Part shown: one piece after another, positions 15,163 to 23,144 of the stretch
Layout: each line of letters begins with the position of its first letter
Position numbering within the stretch: the stretch's first letter is position 1
DNA from: Escherichia coli
Lineage (GTDB): Bacteria; Pseudomonadota; Gammaproteobacteria; Enterobacterales; Enterobacteriaceae
Direction: 5' to 3' (one strand)
Assembly (NCBI RefSeq): GCF_003790525.1
Contig: NZ_CP033635.1
Length of the DNA stretch: 64,000 bases
Position numbers and translations under genes: made by a program
The notes under the pieces: generated by a model
Databases searched by the model: none
Told to the model about the DNA's origin: nothing
What the model saw: the letters and a program-made list of their open reading frames with translations, nothing else

Positions 15163-15485
15163 GATGTACCTCCTGGTTGCAGGGTGACTGTATCATCAGA
15201 CCTTATCATGCGTTTAAAAAATGTACTGTAACTCACATTTTTTGGTAAGACGGTGGCTATTACTGCAAATGATGATGGCTCAGTTTTTATTTTTTATTCA
15301 ATATTTTCATGTTGTTATTGTTATTTTGTTTGTTCATACCCTGTGTGGTTCCCCGTTCTTTACATTCAGGCACTTCCGTTTCCTTTAACGTTTTCGTTAC
15401 TCTCTGAAGCTTGTGGTATCTGTGATTACTGATGCCTGCCGTCATACTGCGAAATACCGGATATCAGACCGTGGAGGATTCTGCC

Positions 15486-16058
15486 ATGCAACGCTGGTTT
15501 CTGCCTTTTCTTGCGTCTCTGTTGCTGTTACAGGGTTGTGTTGCCGCTGCGCTGGTCGGTACGGCTGCTGTGGGTACTAAAGTGTCAGTGGATCCCCGAA
15601 GTGCGGGAACGCAGATTGATGATGAAATTCTGGAAGCAAGGGTCAGCCGTGCGCTGTCGAAGGACTCACAACTCAGGGGTGATGCGCGAATTATCGTCAC
15701 AGCATACCAGGGCACTGTACTGCTGACAGGGCAGGTACCAGACCGTAGTGCAGGTGAAAGAGCCCGTCAGATTGCAGATGGTGTTGAGGGGACTGTGCAG
15801 GTATGGAATGAAATAAGGACGGGAAAACCACTCCGTGCTGATAAAACAACCACTGATGCCTGGCTGACCACAAAAATCCGGGCACAGTTACTGAAGAGCA
15901 GCCGGGTGAAACTGTCAGATGTAAAGGTACTGACGGAGAATGGTGAAGTCTTTCTTATGGGGAGAGTTACAGAGAAGGAAGGACAGGCTGCTGCAGATAT
16001 CGCCAGTCGCGTGGCGGGGGTGAAACACGTCATCACCGCATTCAGTTATATACGATGA
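15486..16058 (+). CDS. BON-domain lipoprotein, paralogue of DolP (YraP)
   Basis: Lipobox LLLLQGC, two BON-like segments, strong resemblance to YraP (LQGCVAAA.VGTAAVGTK...DPRS.GTQ.DD); GGAGGA SD before the internal ATG at 15486. Confidence 0.75.
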   Translation: MQRWFLPFLASLLLLQGCVAAALVGTAAVGTKVSVDPRSAGTQIDDEILEARVSRALSKDSQLRGDARIIVTAYQGTVLLTGQVPDRSAGERARQIADGVEGTVQVWNEIRTGKPLRADKTTTDAWLTTKIRAQLLKSSRVKLSDVKVLTENGEVFLMGRVTEKEGQAAADIASRVAGVKHVITAFSYIR

Positions 16059-16105
16059 GTATGGAGAGCCCGTTCGTTCGGGCTCTGTATTTATCTTCCC
16101 CCCGT

Positions 16106-16459
16106 TCATCCCTGGCGTTGCCAGGTGGCACTTCCGTTCTTACAGTCAACGCGCACACGATACTGAATATCTGCTTTCTTTCCACGGGCAGTGAGATGCA
16201 CAGTGATGACATTATCACCTTTATTTACCGGCTCACGAAGATTCACCCAGACAACGGGACGCTGCTGACCGAGAATTTCCTGGTCATCTTTCCACTGAAA
16301 CACCTGTTTCTGGAGATAGTCCCGTTTGACGCTGGCTGCAACAGTCGATGCTTCCTGTCCTTCACATCGTGGAAAACTGACGGTTCTGTTTTTTTCAGCG
16401 GCCAGTGATGATGCACAGATACCGAAGATGAGCAGAATGGAAGAGAGTGCTTTGTTCAT
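16106..16459 (-). CDS. secreted hypothetical protein (117 aa, signal peptide)
   Basis: N-terminal signal peptide MNKALSSILLIFGICASSLAA; GGAGGA SD upstream. Confidence 0.45.
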   Translation of the reverse strand: MNKALSSILLIFGICASSLAAEKNRTVSFPRCEGQEASTVAASVKRDYLQKQVFQWKDDQEILGQQRPVVWVNLREPVNKGDNVITVHLTARGKKADIQYRVRVDCKNGSATWQRQG

Positions 16460-16773
16460 TTACAGGTCCTCCACAGGGGATAGTTTCATTGAGGAGTTAC
16501 ATCTTAACAACATAAAACAGCATTTCCTGTAACAATCCTCACATAACTTCTTATCCCGTCACTTCCCGTTTCACATGGGCAGCATAGCCTGTTTTTTAAC
16601 CCGTTTTTCAGTCATTTCCATAAACAAATCTTCGCTGACGATAAATCTTTTTTCTGTTTAACGATCGATTTTGTCGATCGATATGATATGTATAATTCAT
16701 TTTACCAATGAGAAATCCATCTTAAAATTGGACAAATTCATATGTCTGAAGGAAACATCAGGAGAGGTGGATT

Positions 16774-17523
16774 GTGAAAAAGTTACTGGCACTCACTGCG
16801 GTAGCTGCGCTTACCGGCACGTTTTCAACGCTGGCGCTGGCAGATGCGGATAAAACCGGGTTCTATATCACGGGTAAGGCTGGTGCATCTGTTATCACTC
16901 AGGATAATCAGCGTTTTAGTCAGGACTTTGGTGATGTTGTTTATAAGTATAAAGGCGGTGACAAGAGCGATACGGTTTTTGGCGCCGGCCTTGCGGTGGG
17001 ATATGACTTTTATCAGCACTACAATGTACCTGTTCGCACGGAAGTTGAATTCTATGGTCGCGGCTCTGCGAATTCCCGCTATACACTGGATACATGGGAG
17101 TCCCCGTCTGGAGATAATGGTTGGAAGGAAGACACACAAAACAGGCTCAGCGTGAATACCCTGATGGTGAGCACGTATTATGATTTCAGAAACAGCAGTG
17201 CTTTCACTCCGTGGGTATCAGCCGGACTGGGTTATGCGCGGGTACATCATAAGGCAACATACACCGATACCACCTGGCATAAATCAGGTGAAGTAAGTGA
17301 TGCTTCTTCATTACATTACTCGGGATATGATAACAATTTCGCATGGAGCCTTGGTGTTGGCGTGAAATATGATGTCACCCCGGATTTCAGTCTTGACCTT
17401 GCTTATCGCTATCTTGATGCAGGTGATTCAACCCTGACGTATAAAGACGGGCAGGATACATATAAATCCTCTGTTGATGTCAGAAGTAACGAATTTACGT
17501 TAGGCGCTACATACAGCTTCTGA
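16774..17523 (+). CDS. outer-membrane beta-barrel protein (249 aa)
   Basis: Signal peptide ending ALA-DA, alternating aromatic/hydrophilic strands, C-terminal ...TYSF; GTG start with GGAGAGG SD. Confidence 0.6.
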   Translation: MKKLLALTAVAALTGTFSTLALADADKTGFYITGKAGASVITQDNQRFSQDFGDVVYKYKGGDKSDTVFGAGLAVGYDFYQHYNVPVRTEVEFYGRGSANSRYTLDTWESPSGDNGWKEDTQNRLSVNTLMVSTYYDFRNSSAFTPWVSAGLGYARVHHKATYTDTTWHKSGEVSDASSLHYSGYDNNFAWSLGVGVKYDVTPDFSLDLAYRYLDAGDSTLTYKDGQDTYKSSVDVRSNEFTLGATYSF

Positions 17524-17534
17524 ATGTAATATCT

Positions 17535-17573
17535 GACTACACGTTGTTAAATTCAAAATCGCAGCGTGTAGTC
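17535..17573 (+). terminator. hairpin after the OMP gene (9-bp stem GACTACACG/CGTGTAGTC)
   Basis: Inverted repeat followed by a T-containing tract. Confidence 0.4.
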
Positions 17574-17735
17574 TGATTTGATAGTTTAATACAACAGACA
17601 CGTACCTTCATGGCACTTCCTTAGCCCCCGGTTACGTTCATTTGTACCAGATGTAAGTGGCGTAAAACCATTGTCCAAATAGTGGCTCTAAAAGATTAGA
17701 TACTCATTTAGATATTATATAGCATAAGGTGATAT

Positions 17736-18089
17736 ATGGGATTTTGGGATGCTATAATGGGATTCGGTAAGCTTGCTTCTAATGCTGCTGCTGAAACGAT
17801 GAAAAAAGTCAATTTCAATGTGTGGGATAAAATAAAATCATCTCCGGTAGAAAGAATTAACGATTTTTATAACCAAAATAATACATCTGAGTATAATCGG
17901 CCAGCATACAGAGGATTGGCTATTGCTGCTCTATGTTTTAGGGGGGATTGGAGCGGGGAGCGTTTATGGCGTGAAGATCAGGAGGCTGCTAATTGGTTAA
18001 AGAATTTTAGAATAAAAATTTCACTGGATACATGTGATTCTGCAGATGAACTACGTAAAATAATCGATCGTCTTACAGAACTGAATTGA
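17736..18089 (+). CDS. hypothetical protein A (117 aa, soluble, no recognised domain)
   Basis: ORF with AAGGTGA SD; AT-rich; first of three co-oriented genes. Confidence 0.5.
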   Translation: MGFWDAIMGFGKLASNAAAETMKKVNFNVWDKIKSSPVERINDFYNQNNTSEYNRPAYRGLAIAALCFRGDWSGERLWREDQEAANWLKNFRIKISLDTCDSADELRKIIDRLTELN

Positions 18090-18178
18090 TTACTGGAGGT
18101 GAAGTTATTTTTATAGGGATAAGTTGAAAATATTTATATGCCCTGTAAGTGTTATTTATATATCGAGAGCGTGAGCCA

Positions 18179-18379
18179 ATGGTCTTTCTTCGACCACCTA
18201 CTACATTTATCTGTATGAATTGTCAATGGAGTAAAACTATTATTCATGTGAACTGTACAACAGGATTTTATGAATGTCCTGTGTGTGGAGAGAAAGTTAT
18301 TTATAAACGTAAGGCTACGATTACAGAAAATCTGTTTTCCAGAGTAATGCAATTCTTTCTTAAAAATCATAATATTTGA
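18179..18379 (+). CDS. hypothetical small zinc-ribbon protein B (66 aa from internal ATG; ORF opens at 18149)
   Basis: C-x2-C ... C-x2-C arrangement (CMNC ... CPVC). Confidence 0.45.
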   Translation: MVFLRPPTTFICMNCQWSKTIIHVNCTTGFYECPVCGEKVIYKRKATITENLFSRVMQFFLKNHNI

Positions 18380-18460
18380 TTGATAATAATAATTGTGTCC
18401 CGATGTCTGGCGGAGATAGTTTTTGGAAAGTGATTGTGAAATTTTTAGGTTTTTTGTTGT

Positions 18461-19117
18461 ATGACTGATAATGAAAATATTCTCACACCATCAAAAATCA
18501 TAAAATTTCTGGATTACGCTTATGAAAAATCCATCGATGGTATTGGTATCCCGGGGATAGATACGGCACATAGTCTTGCGGAAAGTTATCTGAAAACGGG
18601 TAGTAGTTTAAAAGAACAGATAAATAGCCTTATTCGATGGCAGAATACCAAGTCTGCCACATCAGGTTTTCTTACTGGTCTTGGAGGAATTATTACATTA
18701 CCAGTAACTATACCGACCAATATTTCAAGTGTCCTTTTCATTCAGGTCAGGATGGTAGCATCTATTGCGATCATGTGTGGTCAGGATATTCGTGATGATA
18801 AAGTCAGAACTATTGTTTATACCTGTCTTGTAGGTAATGCTGCGAAAGATATTTTGAAGGAAGCAGGAATTCAGATAGGACAAAGGTTGACAACAAATGC
18901 AATTAGATGTATTAGCAAAGAAATTATTGTAAAGATAAATAAGGCTGTCGGTTTCAGACTGCTTACAAAAACAGGTGCTACTGGTGTTATTAATATGTCA
19001 AAGCTTGTTCCTGTTGTAGGAGGAATCGTTGGTGGTAGTTTTGATGCGATAACAACCAACATCGTTGGTAATTATGCCAGAGATACATTCCTGAGTTTGA
19101 TTGATAATGATTTATAA
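18461..19117 (+). CDS. hypothetical protein C (218 aa) with C-terminal glycine-zipper-like segment; possibly EcsC-family-like
   Basis: ORF; Gly-rich segment VVGGIVGGSFDAITTNIVGNYA; EcsC resemblance is from memory and unverified. Confidence 0.5.
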   Translation: MTDNENILTPSKIIKFLDYAYEKSIDGIGIPGIDTAHSLAESYLKTGSSLKEQINSLIRWQNTKSATSGFLTGLGGIITLPVTIPTNISSVLFIQVRMVASIAIMCGQDIRDDKVRTIVYTCLVGNAAKDILKEAGIQIGQRLTTNAIRCISKEIIVKINKAVGFRLLTKTGATGVINMSKLVPVVGGIVGGSFDAITTNIVGNYARDTFLSLIDNDL

Positions 19118-19459
19118 AATAAAAGTTTCATAAAAAATAGTATTTTAGGTGTGCTGACGATAGTGGATACTTTAGTATTATTGCTTCAAGTTGCATAATT
19201 TTTAACTAACATTAGGTATGAAATTATCCTGACTGGCGGGTAATACTGCCGCTCAATATGGCAAGGTTGTATTACACTGCAAGGAGAAATTCATCGCATA
19301 TCCTTACCCACAAATTTGGAGGCTATTTTATTTGCCAGTAATAATCATGTTAATCCTGAGAATATAGTTTGATATCATATGGTTAATCATTTATCTTGAT
19401 AGATATCTTCTGGTTTGTATAGGAATTAACTATTGAATATGTCGCCTGAAATCAGAAAT

Positions 19460-19513
19460 CAAAAAATACAAATGACAGTTAACTCCCCACCAACCACTGC
19501 GGTTGGTGGGGAG
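19460..19513 (-). terminator. rho-independent terminator of the integrase gene
   Basis: Perfect 13-bp stem CTCCCCACCAACC / GGTTGGTGGGGAG with 5-nt loop, followed on the minus strand by a T-rich tract. Confidence 0.65.
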
Positions 19514-19516
19514 GAC

Positions 19517-20710
19517 TTATTTCGTTTTTACGTTTTTCTCCATAAGTGAATCAATGTAATCAGCGTACCACTGCATCATTTCACGACGTCCATCCAGATA
19601 TTGCGCATGGTTATAAGTGCCACGCATGACGTTTTTATCAACATGAGCAAGCTGGAGTTCAATCCAGGCTGAGCTGAAATCATGGTCATGGAGAATGGTG
19701 CTGAAGGTATGACGAAATCCGTGGGCTGTTGTCAGGGCATGCCAGCCTGACTGCTCAAGGAATTCATTGATACACTTGCGGTTTCGCGGGAGATCTTTTC
19801 TGAATGCACCAGGAATAATAAAGGCGGAATTACGCGATTCAGTGCGTGTTTTTATCTCCTCCAGTAACGCCAGTACCTGGCGTGAAAGCGGCACAACGTG
19901 CGGTCGTCGCATTTTCATTCTTTCTTTCGGAATAACCCACAGGGCCTCCGTGAAATTAATTTCGTCCCAGGTTGCCAGTCGCAGTTCTCCGGTGCGAACA
20001 GCAGTCAGAACCAGCATCTGCGTTGCCAGCGACATCAGATTTTCGGATGCCGTTATCTGATGCATGAAAGCTCCCATCTGTTCTTCAGAAAGCGTCCTGC
20101 GCTGTTGTTTTTCAGGAGGAAGCAGTACCCCGCTGAGTGTCGATGCCGGATTAACGGTAGCACGTCCTGTTGCTATGGCATAATCAAAAACCTGCGCACA
20201 GAGCTGGCGTGTTTTACGCAGTGCTTCAAGTTTTCCCTGTTCTTCTATAGTCCTCAGAACGTTCAGTATTTCCATGGGGCGGATCCCGGTCACAGGACGG
20301 TTTCCAAGAGCAGGGAAAACATGATTTTCAAGTCTTGCACGCTGATCTGCCTGGTAACCTGTTGTCCATCGACGTGCCATATGGGTAAGCAGCTCCTCTG
20401 CAATGGTGCGAAATGTGCAGGCCATACTTTCCCTGATGGCAAGTTTTCGCGCCTGTTTTTCATACGACGGATCTTTACCTTCAGCCAGAAGTTTCCGTGC
20501 TTCATCCCGCTTCTGACGAGCCTGAGCCAGTGATATGTCAGGATAGACACCAATCACCAGTTTCTTTTCCTTACCGGCAAAGCGGTACTTCAGATTCCAG
20601 TAACGGGCACCGGATTTTTTGACAAGAAGATAAAGGCCCTGACCGTCAGAAAGTTTGTAATCCCTGTCAGCAGGTTTAGCCGACTCAATTTGTCGAACAG
20701 TAAGTGGCAT
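19517..20710 (-). CDS. tyrosine recombinase, P4-type phage/island integrase (397 aa)
   Basis: Full-length ORF with typical P4-family N-terminus (MPLTVRQIESAKPADRDYKLSDGQGLYLLV) and catalytic C-terminal region (HGFRHTFST...). Confidence 0.9.
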   Translation of the reverse strand: MPLTVRQIESAKPADRDYKLSDGQGLYLLVKKSGARYWNLKYRFAGKEKKLVIGVYPDISLAQARQKRDEARKLLAEGKDPSYEKQARKLAIRESMACTFRTIAEELLTHMARRWTTGYQADQRARLENHVFPALGNRPVTGIRPMEILNVLRTIEEQGKLEALRKTRQLCAQVFDYAIATGRATVNPASTLSGVLLPPEKQQRRTLSEEQMGAFMHQITASENLMSLATQMLVLTAVRTGELRLATWDEINFTEALWVIPKERMKMRRPHVVPLSRQVLALLEEIKTRTESRNSAFIIPGAFRKDLPRNRKCINEFLEQSGWHALTTAHGFRHTFSTILHDHDFSSAWIELQLAHVDKNVMRGTYNHAQYLDGRREMMQWYADYIDSLMEKNVKTK

Positions 20711-20924
20711 GATGTTACCCCTGCAATGTAGCCCCCATAATAGCCCCCAAAATCATCTTGATGTTCATGGAATATGATTTACCCCCAGAGAGAAGGAATT
20801 TCTTATGATACCTTATTTCAAAGGGGGTTAAAGGGGGAGGGGTTATCTCTGTTGAAATCAGTTGATATCAATAGATCCTCCCCAGAGGGGCGAGGGGACC
20901 GTTCGAACTCGTATTTGACTTTGT

Positions 20925-20961: not shown

Positions 20962-22044
20962 TTACGATTTTCTCATTAACAGCCACAGGCTGATTAAGAA
21001 GAAGCTGGCGCTTGGCAACAGTGCGCCGATGATCGGCGGGATGCCATAAACCAACGTCAGCGGGCCGAAGATCTGGTCCAGTACGTAGAAGACAAAACCG
21101 AAGCTGATACCGGTGACCACACGCACGCCCATCGGTACGCTACGCAGTGGGCCAAAGATAAACGACAGCGCCATCAGCATCATCACCGCCACGGATAGCG
21201 GCTGGAAGATTTTGCTCCACATGTTGAGCTGATAACGTCCGGCATCCTGACCGCTCGACTTCAGATACTTCACATAGTTGTGCAAACCACTGATGGAGAG
21301 TGCATCCGGGTCCAGCGCCACCACGCCCAGTTTGTCTGGCGTGAGGTTGGTTTTCCAGGTGCCGCTCACCGTCTGCGAACCGGTGATCTGTTTCGGATTG
21401 GTCAGATCAGATTCATCAACCTGCGACAGACGCCAGACTTTATGTTCCGGGTCAAACTTCGCGGTAGCGGCATAACGTACGGATTGCAGACGACGATTCT
21501 CGTTAAAGGCATAAATACTGATGCCACCTAACTCTTCGTCACCTTTAACCCGCTCAATGTAGACGAAGTTGTTGCCATCTTTCGCCCATAAGCCTTGCTG
21601 AGTGGAGAGCAACGAGCCGCCGTACATCGCCTGCGCACGGTAGTTACGCGCCATCTGCTCGCCCTGCGGCGCGACCCATTCACCAATCGCCATCGTCAGC
21701 AAGACCAGCGGAATGGCGGTTTTCATCACCGACAGCGCCACCTGCATACGGGTAAAACCAGAAGCCTGCATGACTACCAGTTCGCTGCGCTGCGCCAGCA
21801 TCCCAAGACCAAGCAACGCCCCAAGCAGAGCCGCCATCGGGAAGAAGATTTGCACATCTTTCGGCACGCTCAGCAAGGTATACATTCCTGCGCCTAACGC
21901 GTCGTAACTCCCCTGCCCGGCTTTTTTCAGCTGATCGACAAACTTGATAATGCCCGACAGCGACACCAGCATGAACAGCGTCATCATGATGGTGGTGAAA
22001 ATAGTTTTACCGATATAGCGGTCAAGTACGCCAAAAGGTTGCAT
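20962..22044 (-). CDS. lptG: LPS export ABC transporter permease LptG
   Basis: ORF matches LptG; start overlaps lptF stop (TGATG). Confidence 0.9.
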   Translation of the reverse strand: MQPFGVLDRYIGKTIFTTIMMTLFMLVSLSGIIKFVDQLKKAGQGSYDALGAGMYTLLSVPKDVQIFFPMAALLGALLGLGMLAQRSELVVMQASGFTRMQVALSVMKTAIPLVLLTMAIGEWVAPQGEQMARNYRAQAMYGGSLLSTQQGLWAKDGNNFVYIERVKGDEELGGISIYAFNENRRLQSVRYAATAKFDPEHKVWRLSQVDESDLTNPKQITGSQTVSGTWKTNLTPDKLGVVALDPDALSISGLHNYVKYLKSSGQDAGRYQLNMWSKIFQPLSVAVMMLMALSFIFGPLRSVPMGVRVVTGISFGFVFYVLDQIFGPLTLVYGIPPIIGALLPSASFFLISLWLLMRKS

Positions 22045-23144
22045 CACACCGCTCCTTTACGCGAAAAACTGGCGCGCAGGCGGCGGACCGGCACGGTGTC
22101 CCAAAGGTTGAGAACAATCGCCAAAGCCAGATAAATCAGGTTAACGGTCCACATCCACAGCGTCGGGTCCAGCTTACCTTTACCGCCGTTCGATTTCAGG
22201 GAGGTCTGGATCAGGAAGAACAACAGATACAGCAGCATGGCTGGCAGCATCGATAGTACGCGTCCCTGACGCGGGTTAACCACGCTCAGCGGTACGACCA
22301 TAAGTGCCATCATAAACACGGTGAACACCAACGTGATACGCCAGTTCAGTTCTGCGCGAGCACGATCGGTGTCAGTGTTCCACAATGTGCGCATGTCCAT
22401 CTGGTCGGTATCGTTCGGGTCGAGCGCCACCGCCTGGTGACCAATGATCGCCTGATAATCCTGGAAATCCGTAATGCGGAAATCACGTAACAGTGCAGTG
22501 CCTTCGAAGCGCGTTCCCTGGTTGAGAGTGACGACCTGGGAGCCGTCGCGCAGCTGGGTTAAATGTCCGGAATCGGCCACCACCACAGAAGGTCGTGCAT
22601 TACCTTTTGGTCGAATTTGCGCGAGGAACACATCTTTGAAATCGCTGCCGTCAACGCTTTCGATGAACAGCACCGAGCTGCCATTAGTCGCTTGCTGGAA
22701 TTGCCCTTGCGCAAGCGCCGCCATGCCAGGGTTCGCTTTCGCTTCTGCTAACACTTCATCCTGATGACGCGATGACCACGGTCCCGCCCACATCACGTTA
22801 ACCGCCGCGACGATTGCCGTGAATACCGCAAGGATCATTGCCGCTTTCACCAGCACCGCTTTGCTCAGGCCGCAGGCATGCATTACCGTAATTTCACTTT
22901 CGGTATACAGTTTGCCCAGCGTCATCAGCAGCCCGAGGAACAGGCTTAATGGCAGGATAAGCTGCGCCATTTCCGGCACGCCCAACCCGAGAAGGGAGAG
23001 CACCAGATTCGCCGGAATATCGCCGTCAACCGCTGCGCCGAGGATCCTCACTAACTTTTGACAGAAGAAGATCAAAAGCAAGATGAAGAGTATCGCCAGC
23101 TGGCTTTTGAGCGTCTCCCGCACCAGATATCTTATGATTATCAC
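22044..23144 (-). CDS. lptF: LPS export ABC transporter permease LptF
   Basis: 366-aa ORF, LptF sequence and synteny. Confidence 0.9.
   Translation of the reverse strand: MIIIRYLVRETLKSQLAILFILLLIFFCQKLVRILGAAVDGDIPANLVLSLLGLGVPEMAQLILPLSLFLGLLMTLGKLYTESEITVMHACGLSKAVLVKAAMILAVFTAIVAAVNVMWAGPWSSRHQDEVLAEAKANPGMAALAQGQFQQATNGSSVLFIESVDGSDFKDVFLAQIRPKGNARPSVVVADSGHLTQLRDGSQVVTLNQGTRFEGTALLRDFRITDFQDYQAIIGHQAVALDPNDTDQMDMRTLWNTDTDRARAELNWRITLVFTVFMMALMVVPLSVVNPRQGRVLSMLPAMLLYLLFFLIQTSLKSNGGKGKLDPTLWMWTVNLIYLALAIVLNLWDTVPVRRLRASFSRKGAV

What the first reader, a model, noticed from the sequence alone, without database searches (positions are those of the whole stretch)
17524..19516. Three co-oriented AT-rich hypothetical genes convergent on the island integrase: best candidate for an uncharacterised accessory module
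Genes A (17736-18089, 117 aa, soluble), B (18179-18379, about 66 aa, C-x2-C...C-x2-C zinc ribbon) and C (18461-19117, 218 aa, glycine-zipper-like C-terminus) sit in a visibly AT-rich block, unlike the flanking integrase and core genes. They are spaced 60-90 bp apart on one strand, bracketed by the OMP-gene hairpin and the integrase terminator, and convergent with the P4-type integrase. None resembles a protein I can assign a function to. Integrase-proximal, AT-rich, convergently oriented cargo is the typical layout of variable anti-phage or toxin cargo in P4-like satellites and tRNA-type islands, but that is inference only.
Basis: partly seen in the sequence, partly recalled or inferred. Interest (0 to 1): 0.7.

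Follow-up and report, generated by a model that had tools for sequence, protein, structure and literature searches.

The report
EcsC-type defence-candidate cassette in an island
The three AT-rich genes are real and are inherited together in E. coli. The largest one belongs to a catalogued but untested family of candidate anti-phage proteins, so the locus is a useful lead rather than a new kind of system.

Summary
Three co-oriented ORFs lie in a 31-39% GC block between two strong hairpins and converge on a P4-type integrase: A (17736-18089), B (18179-18379) and C (18461-19117).

Gene C is not unassignable. It is an EcsC-family protein (Pfam PF12787) and a full-length match to PADLOC PDC-S29 (E 2e-86). 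PDC-S29 is a single-gene "phage defence candidate" that has never been tested. The C family is about 60% identical across bacterial phyla and has no fixed neighbour. It is often next to defence genes, in one case in an operon with jukA. It also occurs on prophages and as the only cargo of a 2.1-kb plasmid.

Gene A belongs to an uncharacterised family of about 110 aa with an invariant MGF(W/F)D N-terminus. A-like genes sit beside EcsC-like genes in 3-4 lineages. Elsewhere they sit beside JukAB, WYL regulators and dynamin-like PDC-M09 candidates.

Gene B is a fast-evolving Zn-ribbon-like micro-ORF found only in E. coli.

A-B-C is co-inherited in two diverged E. coli cassette types under purifying selection. 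It is most likely a membrane-proximal anti-phage cassette with C as effector and A as accessory. No phenotype has been shown. There is no tRNA and no P4-satellite backbone.

The parts
17535..17573 (+). Hairpin after the OMP gene (13-bp stem). It marks the left edge of the AT-rich block.
   Evidence: RNA fold -21.7 kcal/mol, z -4.97, 0 of 200 shuffles as good.
17610..17681 (+). Degenerate B-like fragment upstream of A (MALP*PPVTFICTRCKWRKTIVQI). It has an in-frame stop and only the first CxxC.
   Evidence: tblastn of B against the window: 12/24 identical, E 4e-5.
17736..18089 (+). Gene A, 117 aa. It is soluble, with a flexible invariant N-terminus (MGFWD) followed by a helical bundle. It belongs to an uncharacterised family that associates with defence islands.
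   Evidence: ORF. No Pfam, NCBIfam, PADLOC or PHROG hit. Only 10-14 related clusters in 5.8 G / 1.84 G proteins. AF2 pLDDT 81. No solved or annotated fold relative. dN/dS 0.17. Good SD (AAGGTG) visible in the sequence.
18179..18379 (+). Gene B, 66 aa. It is a CxxC-x17-CxxC Zn-ribbon-like micro-ORF with a C-terminal amphipathic helix, restricted to E. coli and fast-evolving.
   Evidence: The ORF is intact in L001 and L003 and in the type-2 cassette (34% aa identity, one Cys lost). Only 3 clusters, all E. coli or unnamed. dN/dS 0.33-0.35, and locally much higher dS than A or C. Weak PHROG Zn-ribbon hits only. PGAP does not annotate it.
18461..19117 (+). Gene C, 218 aa. EcsC-family protein of PADLOC type PDC-S29. 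It is all-helical, with a hydrophobic hairpin-like centre (residues 66-107) and a C-terminal GxxxG segment.
   Evidence: PDC-S29 E 2.4e-86, covering 205/220 of the model. Pfam EcsC 1.4e-11. Family alignment A1 has 54 invariant columns. KD19 up to 1.93. AF2 model is all-helical, pLDDT 56. dN/dS 0.12.
19118..19482 (.). AT-rich spacer between C and the integrase with no ORF of 40 aa or more. In sister islands this position holds ISAs1 remnants and a TPR-protein gene.
   Evidence: No Rfam match.
19483..19513 (.). Bidirectional terminator-like hairpin (13-bp stem, 9 GC pairs) at the integrase stop codon.
   Evidence: z -5.9 on + and -5.7 on -.
19517..20710 (-). P4-type tyrosine integrase of the island, convergent with A-B-C.
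   Evidence: NCBIfam PRK09692 1.3e-80 and PHROG integrase 3e-62.
20711..20895 (.). Right end of the island. The sequence is shared by copies next to lptG, ulaD and ypfG, and homology stops at ...CCTCCCCAGAGGGGCGAGGGGAC.
   Evidence: Junction alignment. lptG follows at 20962-22047.

Best explanation
The block is a horizontally mobile accessory cassette built around gene C.

Gene C is an EcsC-family protein of the PADLOC PDC-S29 type. In most bacteria it works as a self-contained single gene. I infer that C is a membrane-associated helical protein. Its N-terminal ~65 residues would be cytosolic. The invariant hydrophobic hairpin (residues 66-107) and the GxxxG-rich C-terminal helix would mediate membrane insertion or oligomerisation. 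I infer that it acts as an anti-phage effector at the inner membrane, early in infection. It could do this alone or when recruited by a sensor such as JukA/YaaW. The effect could be a block on phage genome entry or establishment, or a collapse of membrane integrity (abortive infection).

In E. coli the cassette has gained two lineage-specific partners. Gene A is a soluble helical-bundle protein with an invariant, flexible MGF(W/F)D N-terminal peptide. Its family also rides with JukAB, with WYL-regulated TerB/dynamin-like PDC-M09 clusters and with other EcsC-like genes. I read A as an adaptor, sensor or regulator that docks through its N-terminal peptide. Gene B is a rapidly diverging Zn-ribbon-like micro-protein that may tune specificity or expression.

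Shown: the family memberships, the co-inheritance, the purifying selection and the genomic associations. Inferred: membrane location, the A-C interaction, and any anti-phage activity.
For: Family membership of C:
- PDC-S29 at E 2.4e-86 over the full length, and Pfam EcsC.
- The PDC set was derived from genes embedded in BREX, DISARM and type I R-M systems.

Distribution of the C family:
- More than 2381 proteins. Relatives occur in 348 of about 100,000 species genomes, at 52-63% identity from Proteobacteria to Bacillaceae, Bacteroidales, Campylobacterales and a Nanosynbacter MAG.
- No recurrent neighbour family: at most 5 of 65 loci share one.
- 5 of 40 nearest neighbours in 20 species hit PADLOC models: OLD/GajA-like, JukA, two type I MTases and BovA.
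- One locus is an EcsC-JukA operon with a 32-bp gap. This matches the Juk preprint's remark that EcsC-like genes form putative operons with jukA.
- An EcsC homologue is a predicted CASP-sigma target in a type III-E CRISPR locus.
- Relatives occur in 41 IMG/VR contigs, as the only cargo of a 2131-bp plasmid, and beside WYL, GmrSD or type I R-M genes.

The cassette in E. coli:
- A-B-C is kept in two E. coli cassette types. Between them only the A and C coding sequences remain alignable at the DNA level. dN/dS is 0.17 (A), 0.35 (B) and 0.12 (C).
- Every chromosomal E. coli copy of C has A: 24 genomes.

The A family elsewhere:
- 33 bp downstream of a divergent EcsC-like gene.
- Probably upstream of EcsC in Vibrio crassostreae.
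- Directly after JukA-JukB.
- Inside a WYL / A / TerB-like / PDC-M09A-like / PDC-M09B-like operon.
- Beside BrxR plus PDC-M09.

Structure and hydropathy:
- C has a hydrophobic centre, KD19 1.93.
- A is soluble, AF2 pLDDT 81, with a low-confidence N-terminal 20 residues.
Against: - No EcsC-family or PDC-S29 protein has a demonstrated anti-phage phenotype in the searchable literature.
- The Juk study tested nine operons with non-JukB partners. Only two protected, and those needed JukA alone.
- 35 of 40 sampled neighbours of C homologues hit no defence model. That sample was small and partly hand-picked.
- The A-C link is facultative. 80 of 80 species loci with C lack A, and most A-like loci lack an EcsC-like gene.
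- The AF2 model of C is poor (pLDDT 56), so the membrane topology rests on hydropathy only.
- Neighbours in this island are envelope proteins (DolP and YebF paralogues and an OMP), which could point to a non-defence envelope role.
- No promoter or operon structure was established.
Confidence: 0.5

Rival explanations
1. The three genes are independent passengers with no joint function. They happen to lie together in a variable, AT-rich arm of the island. C may act alone, A is a separate small accessory or moron gene, and B is a decaying or spurious ORF.
For: C is solitary in 80 of 80 species loci and in 41 viral contigs. A-like genes occur without any EcsC-like gene in most non-E. coli loci, and as a lone moron-like gene in a prophage early region. 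B is confined to E. coli, is not annotated by PGAP, has lost one Cys in type 2, and has a degenerate second copy upstream of A.
Against: A-B-C order and spacing persist across two cassette types whose intergenic DNA and flanks have diverged beyond blastn recognition. All three ORFs remain intact with dN/dS below 1. All 24 chromosomal E. coli copies of C carry A. A-like and EcsC-like genes are adjacent in at least three independent lineages, although each family is rare.
Confidence: 0.2
2. The cassette is a toxin-antitoxin or addiction-type module that stabilises the island. C would be a membrane-damaging toxin held in check by A or B.
For: The genes are small, adjacent and co-oriented on a mobile element. 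C has hydrophobic and GxxxG segments typical of membrane-active proteins. An EcsC gene is the sole cargo of a 2.1-kb plasmid. C has a weak Shine-Dalgarno sequence (visible).
Against: C lacks any conserved partner in more than 100 loci, including the 2.1-kb plasmid. It therefore cannot depend on a cognate antitoxin. The 81-89 bp gaps and the lack of overlap are atypical for type II TA pairs. No PADLOC, NCBIfam or Pfam toxin-antitoxin model hits A or B.
Confidence: 0.1
3. C has a non-immune envelope or membrane-homeostasis role, by analogy with the ecsABC operon of Bacillus subtilis. It would be grouped here with other envelope genes of the island (DolP and YebF paralogues and the OMP).
For: C is a Pfam EcsC member. 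The neighbouring island genes encode envelope proteins. TerB-EcsC and DjlA_N-EcsC fusions exist. An EcsC gene lies beside the TerD/TerY cluster on large plasmids.
Against: No ecsA/ecsB-type ABC transporter is adjacent here or in any sampled locus. The distribution is sporadic: 0.35% of species and 0.6% of complete E. coli genomes. The type-2 cassette has quite different neighbours, and the OMP/DolP/YebF genes do not travel with A-B-C. The family also has prophage and small-plasmid carriage.
Confidence: 0.12
4. A and/or B are counter-defence or regulatory proteins that serve the mobile element, for example inhibitors of host Juk- or PDC-type systems, rather than parts of a defence system.
For: They are small and fast-evolving (B) or have a conserved N-terminal peptide (A). 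A-like sits in a prophage early region on the opposite strand to the replication and recombination genes. B gives weak PHROG hits that include a Lar-like restriction-alleviation family, E 3e-3.
Against: In chromosomes, A-like genes lie inside or at the ends of candidate defence operons, on the same strand and only 11-50 bp away. This looks like a component rather than an inhibitor. The PHROG hits for B are at the level expected for any CxxC...CxxC ribbon.
Confidence: 0.06

Closest known systems
PADLOC PDC-S29 (single-gene 'phage defence candidate', EcsC-family; Payne et al., bioRxiv 10.1101/2024.01.29.577857)
   Same: Gene C matches the PDC-S29 model end to end (E 2.4e-86). Like the candidate set, its relatives are found embedded in or next to R-M and other defence genes.
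   Different: PDC-S29 is defined as a single gene and is untested. Here, and in all chromosomal E. coli copies, it comes with two extra upstream genes (A and B) that are not part of any PADLOC model.
Juk (jumbo-phage killer) systems: JukA/YaaW sensor plus a variable effector (bioRxiv 10.1101/2022.09.17.508391)
   Same: EcsC-like genes are reported as putative operon partners of jukA. I found one PDC-S29-type gene 32 bp upstream of jukA. An A-like gene lies directly after jukA-jukB. This fits a sensor plus variable, membrane-proximal effector logic.
   Different: No jukA or jukB is in the cassette or anywhere in the 64-kb window. Any use of the chromosomal yaaW in trans is speculation. EcsC-like partners were not shown to protect.
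Bacillus subtilis EcsC of the ecsABC operon (founder of Pfam PF12787)
   Same: Same Pfam family.
   Different: No adjacent ABC-transporter genes. C is mobile, sporadic and AT-rich, and is carried on islands, prophages and plasmids. The Pfam hit covers only model positions 82-235, so the N-terminal part differs.
WYL-regulated PDC-M09 (dynamin/LeoBC-like) candidate clusters
   Same: Homologues of gene A are built into or flank these clusters. Like EcsC and JukA, these are predicted membrane-proximal modules.
   Different: The window has no WYL regulator, TerB-like gene or PDC-M09 gene next to A.
Defence hotspots of P4-like satellites / integrase-proximal cargo of tRNA islands
   Same: A P4-type integrase convergent with AT-rich variable cargo.
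   Different: There is no tRNA in the window. No P4 satellite genes appear in the annotated sister islands. The island lies at lptG, ulaD or ypfG.

Membership tests
PADLOC PDC-S29 | Full-length match to HMM PDLC04988 | tested here: met
   E 2.4e-86, 286.8 bits, residues 6-212 against model positions 10-214 of 220.
PADLOC PDC-S29 | Protects against phage (the reason for the class) | not testable with these tools
   The PDC set is described as 145 untested candidates. No functional paper was found.
Pfam EcsC (PF12787) | Significant match to the Pfam HMM | tested here: met
   i-E 1.4e-11, residues 49-210 against model positions 82-235 of 240. All 120 listed homologues carry PF12787.
ecsABC-type operon (B. 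subtilis Ecs) | ecsC adjacent to ecsA (ATPase) and ecsB (permease) | tested here: not met
   The neighbours are the OMP, A, B and the integrase. No ABC-transporter neighbour appears in the sampled loci.
Juk system | A jukA (YaaW/DUF3944) gene in the same operon | tested here: not met
   A, B, C, the OMP and the integrase give no JukA or JukB hit. tblastn with two JukA sequences and one JukB finds nothing in the window at E<=1.
Juk system | Effector recruited by JukA to the infection site | not testable with these tools
   Only genomic adjacency of relatives is available plus the literature remark.
Type II toxin-antitoxin pair | Toxin always accompanied by a cognate, tightly linked antitoxin gene | tested here: not met
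   C has no conserved neighbour in 65 species loci and no A in 80. It is the sole cargo of a 2.1-kb plasmid. The gaps are 81-89 bp.
P4-like satellite defence hotspot | P4 backbone genes and tRNA-site integration | tested here: not met
   No tRNA in the window. Annotated sister islands carry sit genes, IS elements and dolP/yebF paralogues but no satellite genes.
Zinc-ribbon protein (gene B) | Four conserved Cys (CxxC...CxxC) | tested here: inconclusive
   Present in type-1 copies. The type-2 orthologue has CPVYG, so one Cys is lost. Only weak ribbon-family hits were found.

The most novel reading that the evidence does not exclude
A and the PDC-S29-type EcsC protein, with B as a variable third part, form a previously unrecognised membrane-proximal anti-phage system related in logic to Juk. 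The A family would be a shared adaptor or sensor module. It would plug through its invariant MGF(W/F)D peptide into several otherwise unrelated effectors: EcsC-like proteins, JukAB and TerB/dynamin-like PDC-M09. It might work with the chromosomal YaaW/JukA in trans.
Probability: 0.25. Interest if true: 0.7.

Novelty: new variant of a known kind. Interest (0 to 1): 0.45.

Why it matters
EcsC-family proteins are widespread and have no assigned function. The PDC-S29 clade is unusually conserved across phyla and clearly mobile. It has been flagged as a defence candidate only by its genomic position.

This E. coli cassette gives a native, compact (1.4-kb) version in a tractable host. It also brings a newly recognised partner family (A) that links three separate sets of candidate or known membrane-proximal defences: EcsC, JukAB and PDC-M09/WYL.

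Testing it could validate PDC-S29, assign a role to the A family, and show whether EcsC proteins are alternative Juk-type effectors. If nothing protects, the cassette is ordinary island cargo.

Tried and rejected
- Fold of A: Pfam, NCBIfam, PADLOC and PHROG give nothing. Foldseek against the PDB has best E 0.6 and TM below 0.4. AFDB50 returns only uncharacterised family members.
- Structure of C: the AF2 model from 40 close homologues is poor (pLDDT 56). The fold search returned only EcsC-family models plus TerB/DjlA_N fusions. There is no PDB sequence relative.
- JukA-like proteins as distant EcsC homologues: rejected. hhalign probability is 0.3%.
- A universal A-C pair: rejected. There is no A-like gene in 80 species loci or in 41 viral loci that carry C.
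- A conserved neighbour of C: none.
- RNA elements in the intergenic regions: no Rfam match above noise. The B-C spacer folds no better than shuffles.
- Promoters: the consensus scan is no better than shuffles (12 found against 13.2 expected). The best site overlaps the start of A.
- att repeat of the island end within the window: none.
My first DNA pattern was mistyped. The corrected pattern worked.
- Literature: no functional study of EcsC-family or PDC-S29 proteins in defence. The Juk supplements hold no EcsC test result.
Full report
**1. What is there**

- A, 17736-18089, 117 aa.
- B, 18179-18379, 66 aa from the ATG.
- C, 18461-19117, 218 aa.

The gaps are 89 bp and 81 bp. GC falls to 0.31-0.39 between about 17.4 and 19.6 kb. 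It is about 0.5 in the integrase gene and 0.52-0.58 in lptG/lptF.

The block is bracketed by two strong hairpins:
- About 17535-17573, after an Adr/OmpW/Lom-like outer-membrane-protein gene.
- 19483-19513, at the stop codon of a P4-type integrase (19517-20710, - strand; PRK09692 1e-80).
- Their z-scores are -5.0 and -5.9, and none of 200 shuffles folded as well.

lptG and lptF follow at 20962-23144. No tRNA gene is predicted anywhere in the 64 kb.

**2. The host element**

The window is E. coli-like. The same block (DoxX, dolP paralogue, yebF paralogue, OMP, A, B, EcsC, integrase) occurs in 16 of 5426 complete E. coli genomes at 91-97% identity. Most of these are poultry isolates.

The island lies at three different chromosomal sites: next to lptG, next to ulaD and next to ypfG. 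All three share the same ~190 bp beyond the integrase start. Homology stops at ...CCTCCCCAGAGGGGCGAGG.

Some copies carry ISAs1 remnants and a TPR-protein gene between C and the integrase. The window lacks these. None of the annotated sister islands shows P4-satellite genes. The 'P4-like satellite / tRNA island' frame is therefore not supported.

**3. Gene C**

C is not unassignable. It matches Pfam EcsC (PF12787, 1.4e-11). It also matches the PADLOC model PDC-S29 over its full length (E 2.4e-86).

PDC systems are 145 'phage defence candidates'. They were derived from genes embedded in BREX, DISARM and type I R-M systems and are explicitly untested. I found no functional study of PDC-S29 or of EcsC-family proteins in defence.

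The family is large and unusually conserved:
- More than 2381 proteins.
- 52-63% identity to C in Gamma- and Betaproteobacteria, Bacillaceae, Paenibacillaceae, Bacteroidales, Flavobacteria, Campylobacterales and a Nanosynbacter MAG.
- Present in only 348 of about 100,000 species genomes.
- 54 invariant columns in a 40-sequence alignment.

There is no recurrent neighbour family: at most 5 of 65 loci share one. C therefore behaves as a self-contained, horizontally mobile gene. Supporting observations:
- It occurs in 41 IMG/VR viral contigs.
- It is the only cargo gene of a 2131-bp ColE1-type plasmid.
- It sits beside the TerD/TerY cluster on large plasmids.
- TerB- and DjlA_N-EcsC fusions exist.

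Neighbourhoods often hold defence genes:
- Type I R-M plus an AAA_15 ATPase (L006).
- GmrSD.
- A WYL regulator plus a helicase system.
- 5 of 40 nearest neighbours in 20 species hit PADLOC models: OLD/GajA-like, JukA, two type I MTases and BovA. The sample is small, the ORF calling was crude and the choice was partly by hand, so this is only indicative.

In a Silvanigrella MAG, a PDC-S29-type gene (57% identical to C) lies 32 bp upstream of jukA. The Juk preprint notes that EcsC-like genes form putative operons with jukA. An EcsC homologue is a predicted target of the Csx30-controlled sigma factor in a type III-E CRISPR locus.

C is predicted to be all-helical, but with low confidence (pLDDT 56). 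It has a hydrophobic centre at residues 66-107, with KD19 up to 1.93 and an invariant LP..IP.N turn. It also has an invariant GxxxG segment in the C-terminal helix. Membrane association is therefore inferred, not shown.

**4. Gene A**

A has no hit in Pfam, NCBIfam, PADLOC or PHROGs. It has only 10 related clusters in the 5.8-billion-protein search and 14 in an exhaustive phmmer of 1.84 billion representatives. All are 108-128 aa and begin MGF(W/F/L)D.

AF2 gives a confident helical bundle (pLDDT 81) behind a low-confidence N-terminal 20 residues. No solved or annotated structure resembles it.

Contexts of A-like genes:
- (i) Upstream of C in both E. coli cassette types.
- (ii) Probably upstream of a PDC-S29-type gene in Vibrio crassostreae. 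There, a 126-aa ORF beginning MGFFD lies inside an over-called 224-aa gene.
- (iii) 33 bp downstream of a divergent EcsC-like gene in two metagenome contigs (PDC-S30 2e-14).
- (iv) Directly after jukA-jukB (PADLOC 5e-80 and 1e-65).
- (v) Inside a same-strand cluster of WYL, A-like, TerB-like, PDC-M09A-like and PDC-M09B-like genes, or just upstream of such a cluster.
- (vi) Beside BrxR and PDC-M09A/B.
- (vii) After an HTH-WYL gene and a 995-aa protein.
- (viii) As a lone opposite-strand gene in the early region of a Pseudomonas-type prophage.

A is thus a small protein associated with defence islands. It has a specific but facultative link to EcsC-like genes. None of 80 species loci or 41 viral loci with C has an A-like gene.

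**5. Gene B**

B is a CxxC-x17-CxxC micro-ORF found only in E. coli (3 clusters). RefSeq does not annotate it. The ORF is intact in all copies examined.

The type-2 cassette keeps a 69-aa orthologue (34% identity, E 3e-10) whose second motif is CPVYG, so one Cys is lost. dN/dS is 0.33-0.35.

Between the window and strain CM2, the B segment has dS 0.27, against 0.014 for A and 0.069 for C. That marks a recombined or fast-evolving patch.

A degenerate B-like fragment with an in-frame stop lies upstream of A at 17610-17681. Family hits are only weak zinc-ribbon matches.

**6. Is the trio a unit?**

Within E. coli, yes. A second cassette type (A 68-70% and C 83-84% identical at the protein level) has the same order and spacing but quite different flanks. 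Upstream are a sulfatase and an MFS transporter, or type I R-M. Downstream are GGDEF, TPR and AraC genes and another P4-type integrase.

Between the two types, only the A and C coding sequences still align at the DNA level (76% and 82%). The intergenic DNA and B do not. dN/dS is 0.17 for A and 0.12 for C.

33 of 5426 complete E. coli genomes carry a relative. All 24 chromosomal copies have A with C. The 9 plasmid-borne EcsC genes are more distant and lack A.

Outside E. coli the trio does not exist, and C stands alone.

**7. Interpretation**

The best reading is a mobile accessory cassette centred on a PDC-S29-type EcsC protein. C most likely acts as a membrane-proximal anti-phage effector, alone or with a sensor. 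A would be a lineage-specific adaptor or regulator, and B a rapidly evolving small modulator.

The triangle of adjacencies is the strongest argument that these modules belong to one functional neighbourhood:
- EcsC with JukA.
- A with JukAB.
- A with EcsC.
- In addition, A with WYL/TerB/dynamin-like candidates.

However, every step from 'candidate' to 'defence', and from hydropathy to 'membrane effector', is inference. The rivals are listed with their tests: independent passengers, a TA/addiction module, a non-immune envelope function, and a counter-defence role for A or B. The TA reading is weakened most, because C is solitary in more than 100 loci and on a 2.1-kb plasmid.

**8. Verdict**

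Novelty is a new variant of a known (candidate) kind. PDC-S29 comes here with two extra co-inherited genes, and there is a newly noticed A family that bridges EcsC, Juk and PDC-M09 loci. Interest is moderate (0.45). It is a well-defined, testable lead in E. coli, not a categorical surprise.

Noticed in passing
window 20711-20895, compared with L001 15311-15500, L002 13381-13570 and L003 17104-17290: The same integrase-bearing island sits next to lptG, ulaD or ypfG in different E. coli strains. The right end is identical in all three and stops at a short palindromic GC-rich motif (CCTCCCCAGAGGGGCGAGG). There is no tRNA gene in the window. This is unusual for a P4-type integrase.
   Followed up: partly
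window 17610-17681 (+): A degenerate copy of the N-terminal half of gene B (MALP*PPVTFICTRCKWRKTIVQI, 12/24 identical, in-frame stop) lies upstream of gene A. This suggests a past duplication of the B element.
   Followed up: partly
window 18090-18460, compared with L003: The B gene and its flanks differ by 11-12% between the window and strain CM2, while A and C differ by 1-2%. This is a local mosaic or recombination patch inside the cassette.
   Followed up: partly
window 15432-17523: The island carries extra paralogues of the envelope genes dolP (15432-16058) and yebF (16106-16459, - strand), plus an Adr/OmpW/Lom-like outer-membrane protein (16774-17523). In sister strains sitABCD remnants and IS elements lie upstream.
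   Followed up: no
window 19118-19516, compared with L002 9721-12186 and L003 13444-15909: There is an insertion/deletion polymorphism between C and the integrase. Sister islands hold ISAs1 transposase remnants and a 351-aa TPR protein here. The type-2 cassette also has a TPR protein near its integrase. The window has only a 399-bp AT-rich spacer.
   Followed up: partly
L157 (NZ_CP116985.1, whole plasmid): A 2131-bp ColE1-like E. coli plasmid has an EcsC-family protein as its only cargo gene, 63% identical to gene C.
   Followed up: partly
L158 6865-13980: On large Klebsiella-type plasmids in E. coli, an EcsC-family gene lies between a DUF2971 gene and a cluster of TerY-C, vWA, TerD and PP2C-phosphatase genes.
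   Followed up: no
L169 1646-5913 (- strand); also L110 5001-9857: This is a candidate operon of WYL regulator, A-like, TerB-like, PDC-M09A-like (dynamin/LeoBC-like) and PDC-M09B-like genes. The A-like gene starts 11 bp after the WYL gene. In L110 the A-like gene instead precedes the WYL gene.
   Followed up: partly
L014 6252-6938: In Aeromonas the gene just upstream of the PDC-S29-type gene encodes a 228-aa protein with an HSHPYDS motif. It has a weak SAVED_TIR_JAB hit (E 2.5e-3), so it may be JAB/MPN-like.
   Followed up: no
NZ_AP045773.1 (strain 23CRST013): One E. coli genome carries two copies of the A-B-C cassette, at 606 kb (98.2% identity) and 3.78 Mb (95.9% identity).
   Followed up: no
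window 16615-16829: Two sub-threshold Rfam hits to IS102 RNA (28 and 23 bits; the gathering score is 46) lie upstream of the OMP gene. They are probably noise or an IS remnant.
   Followed up: no
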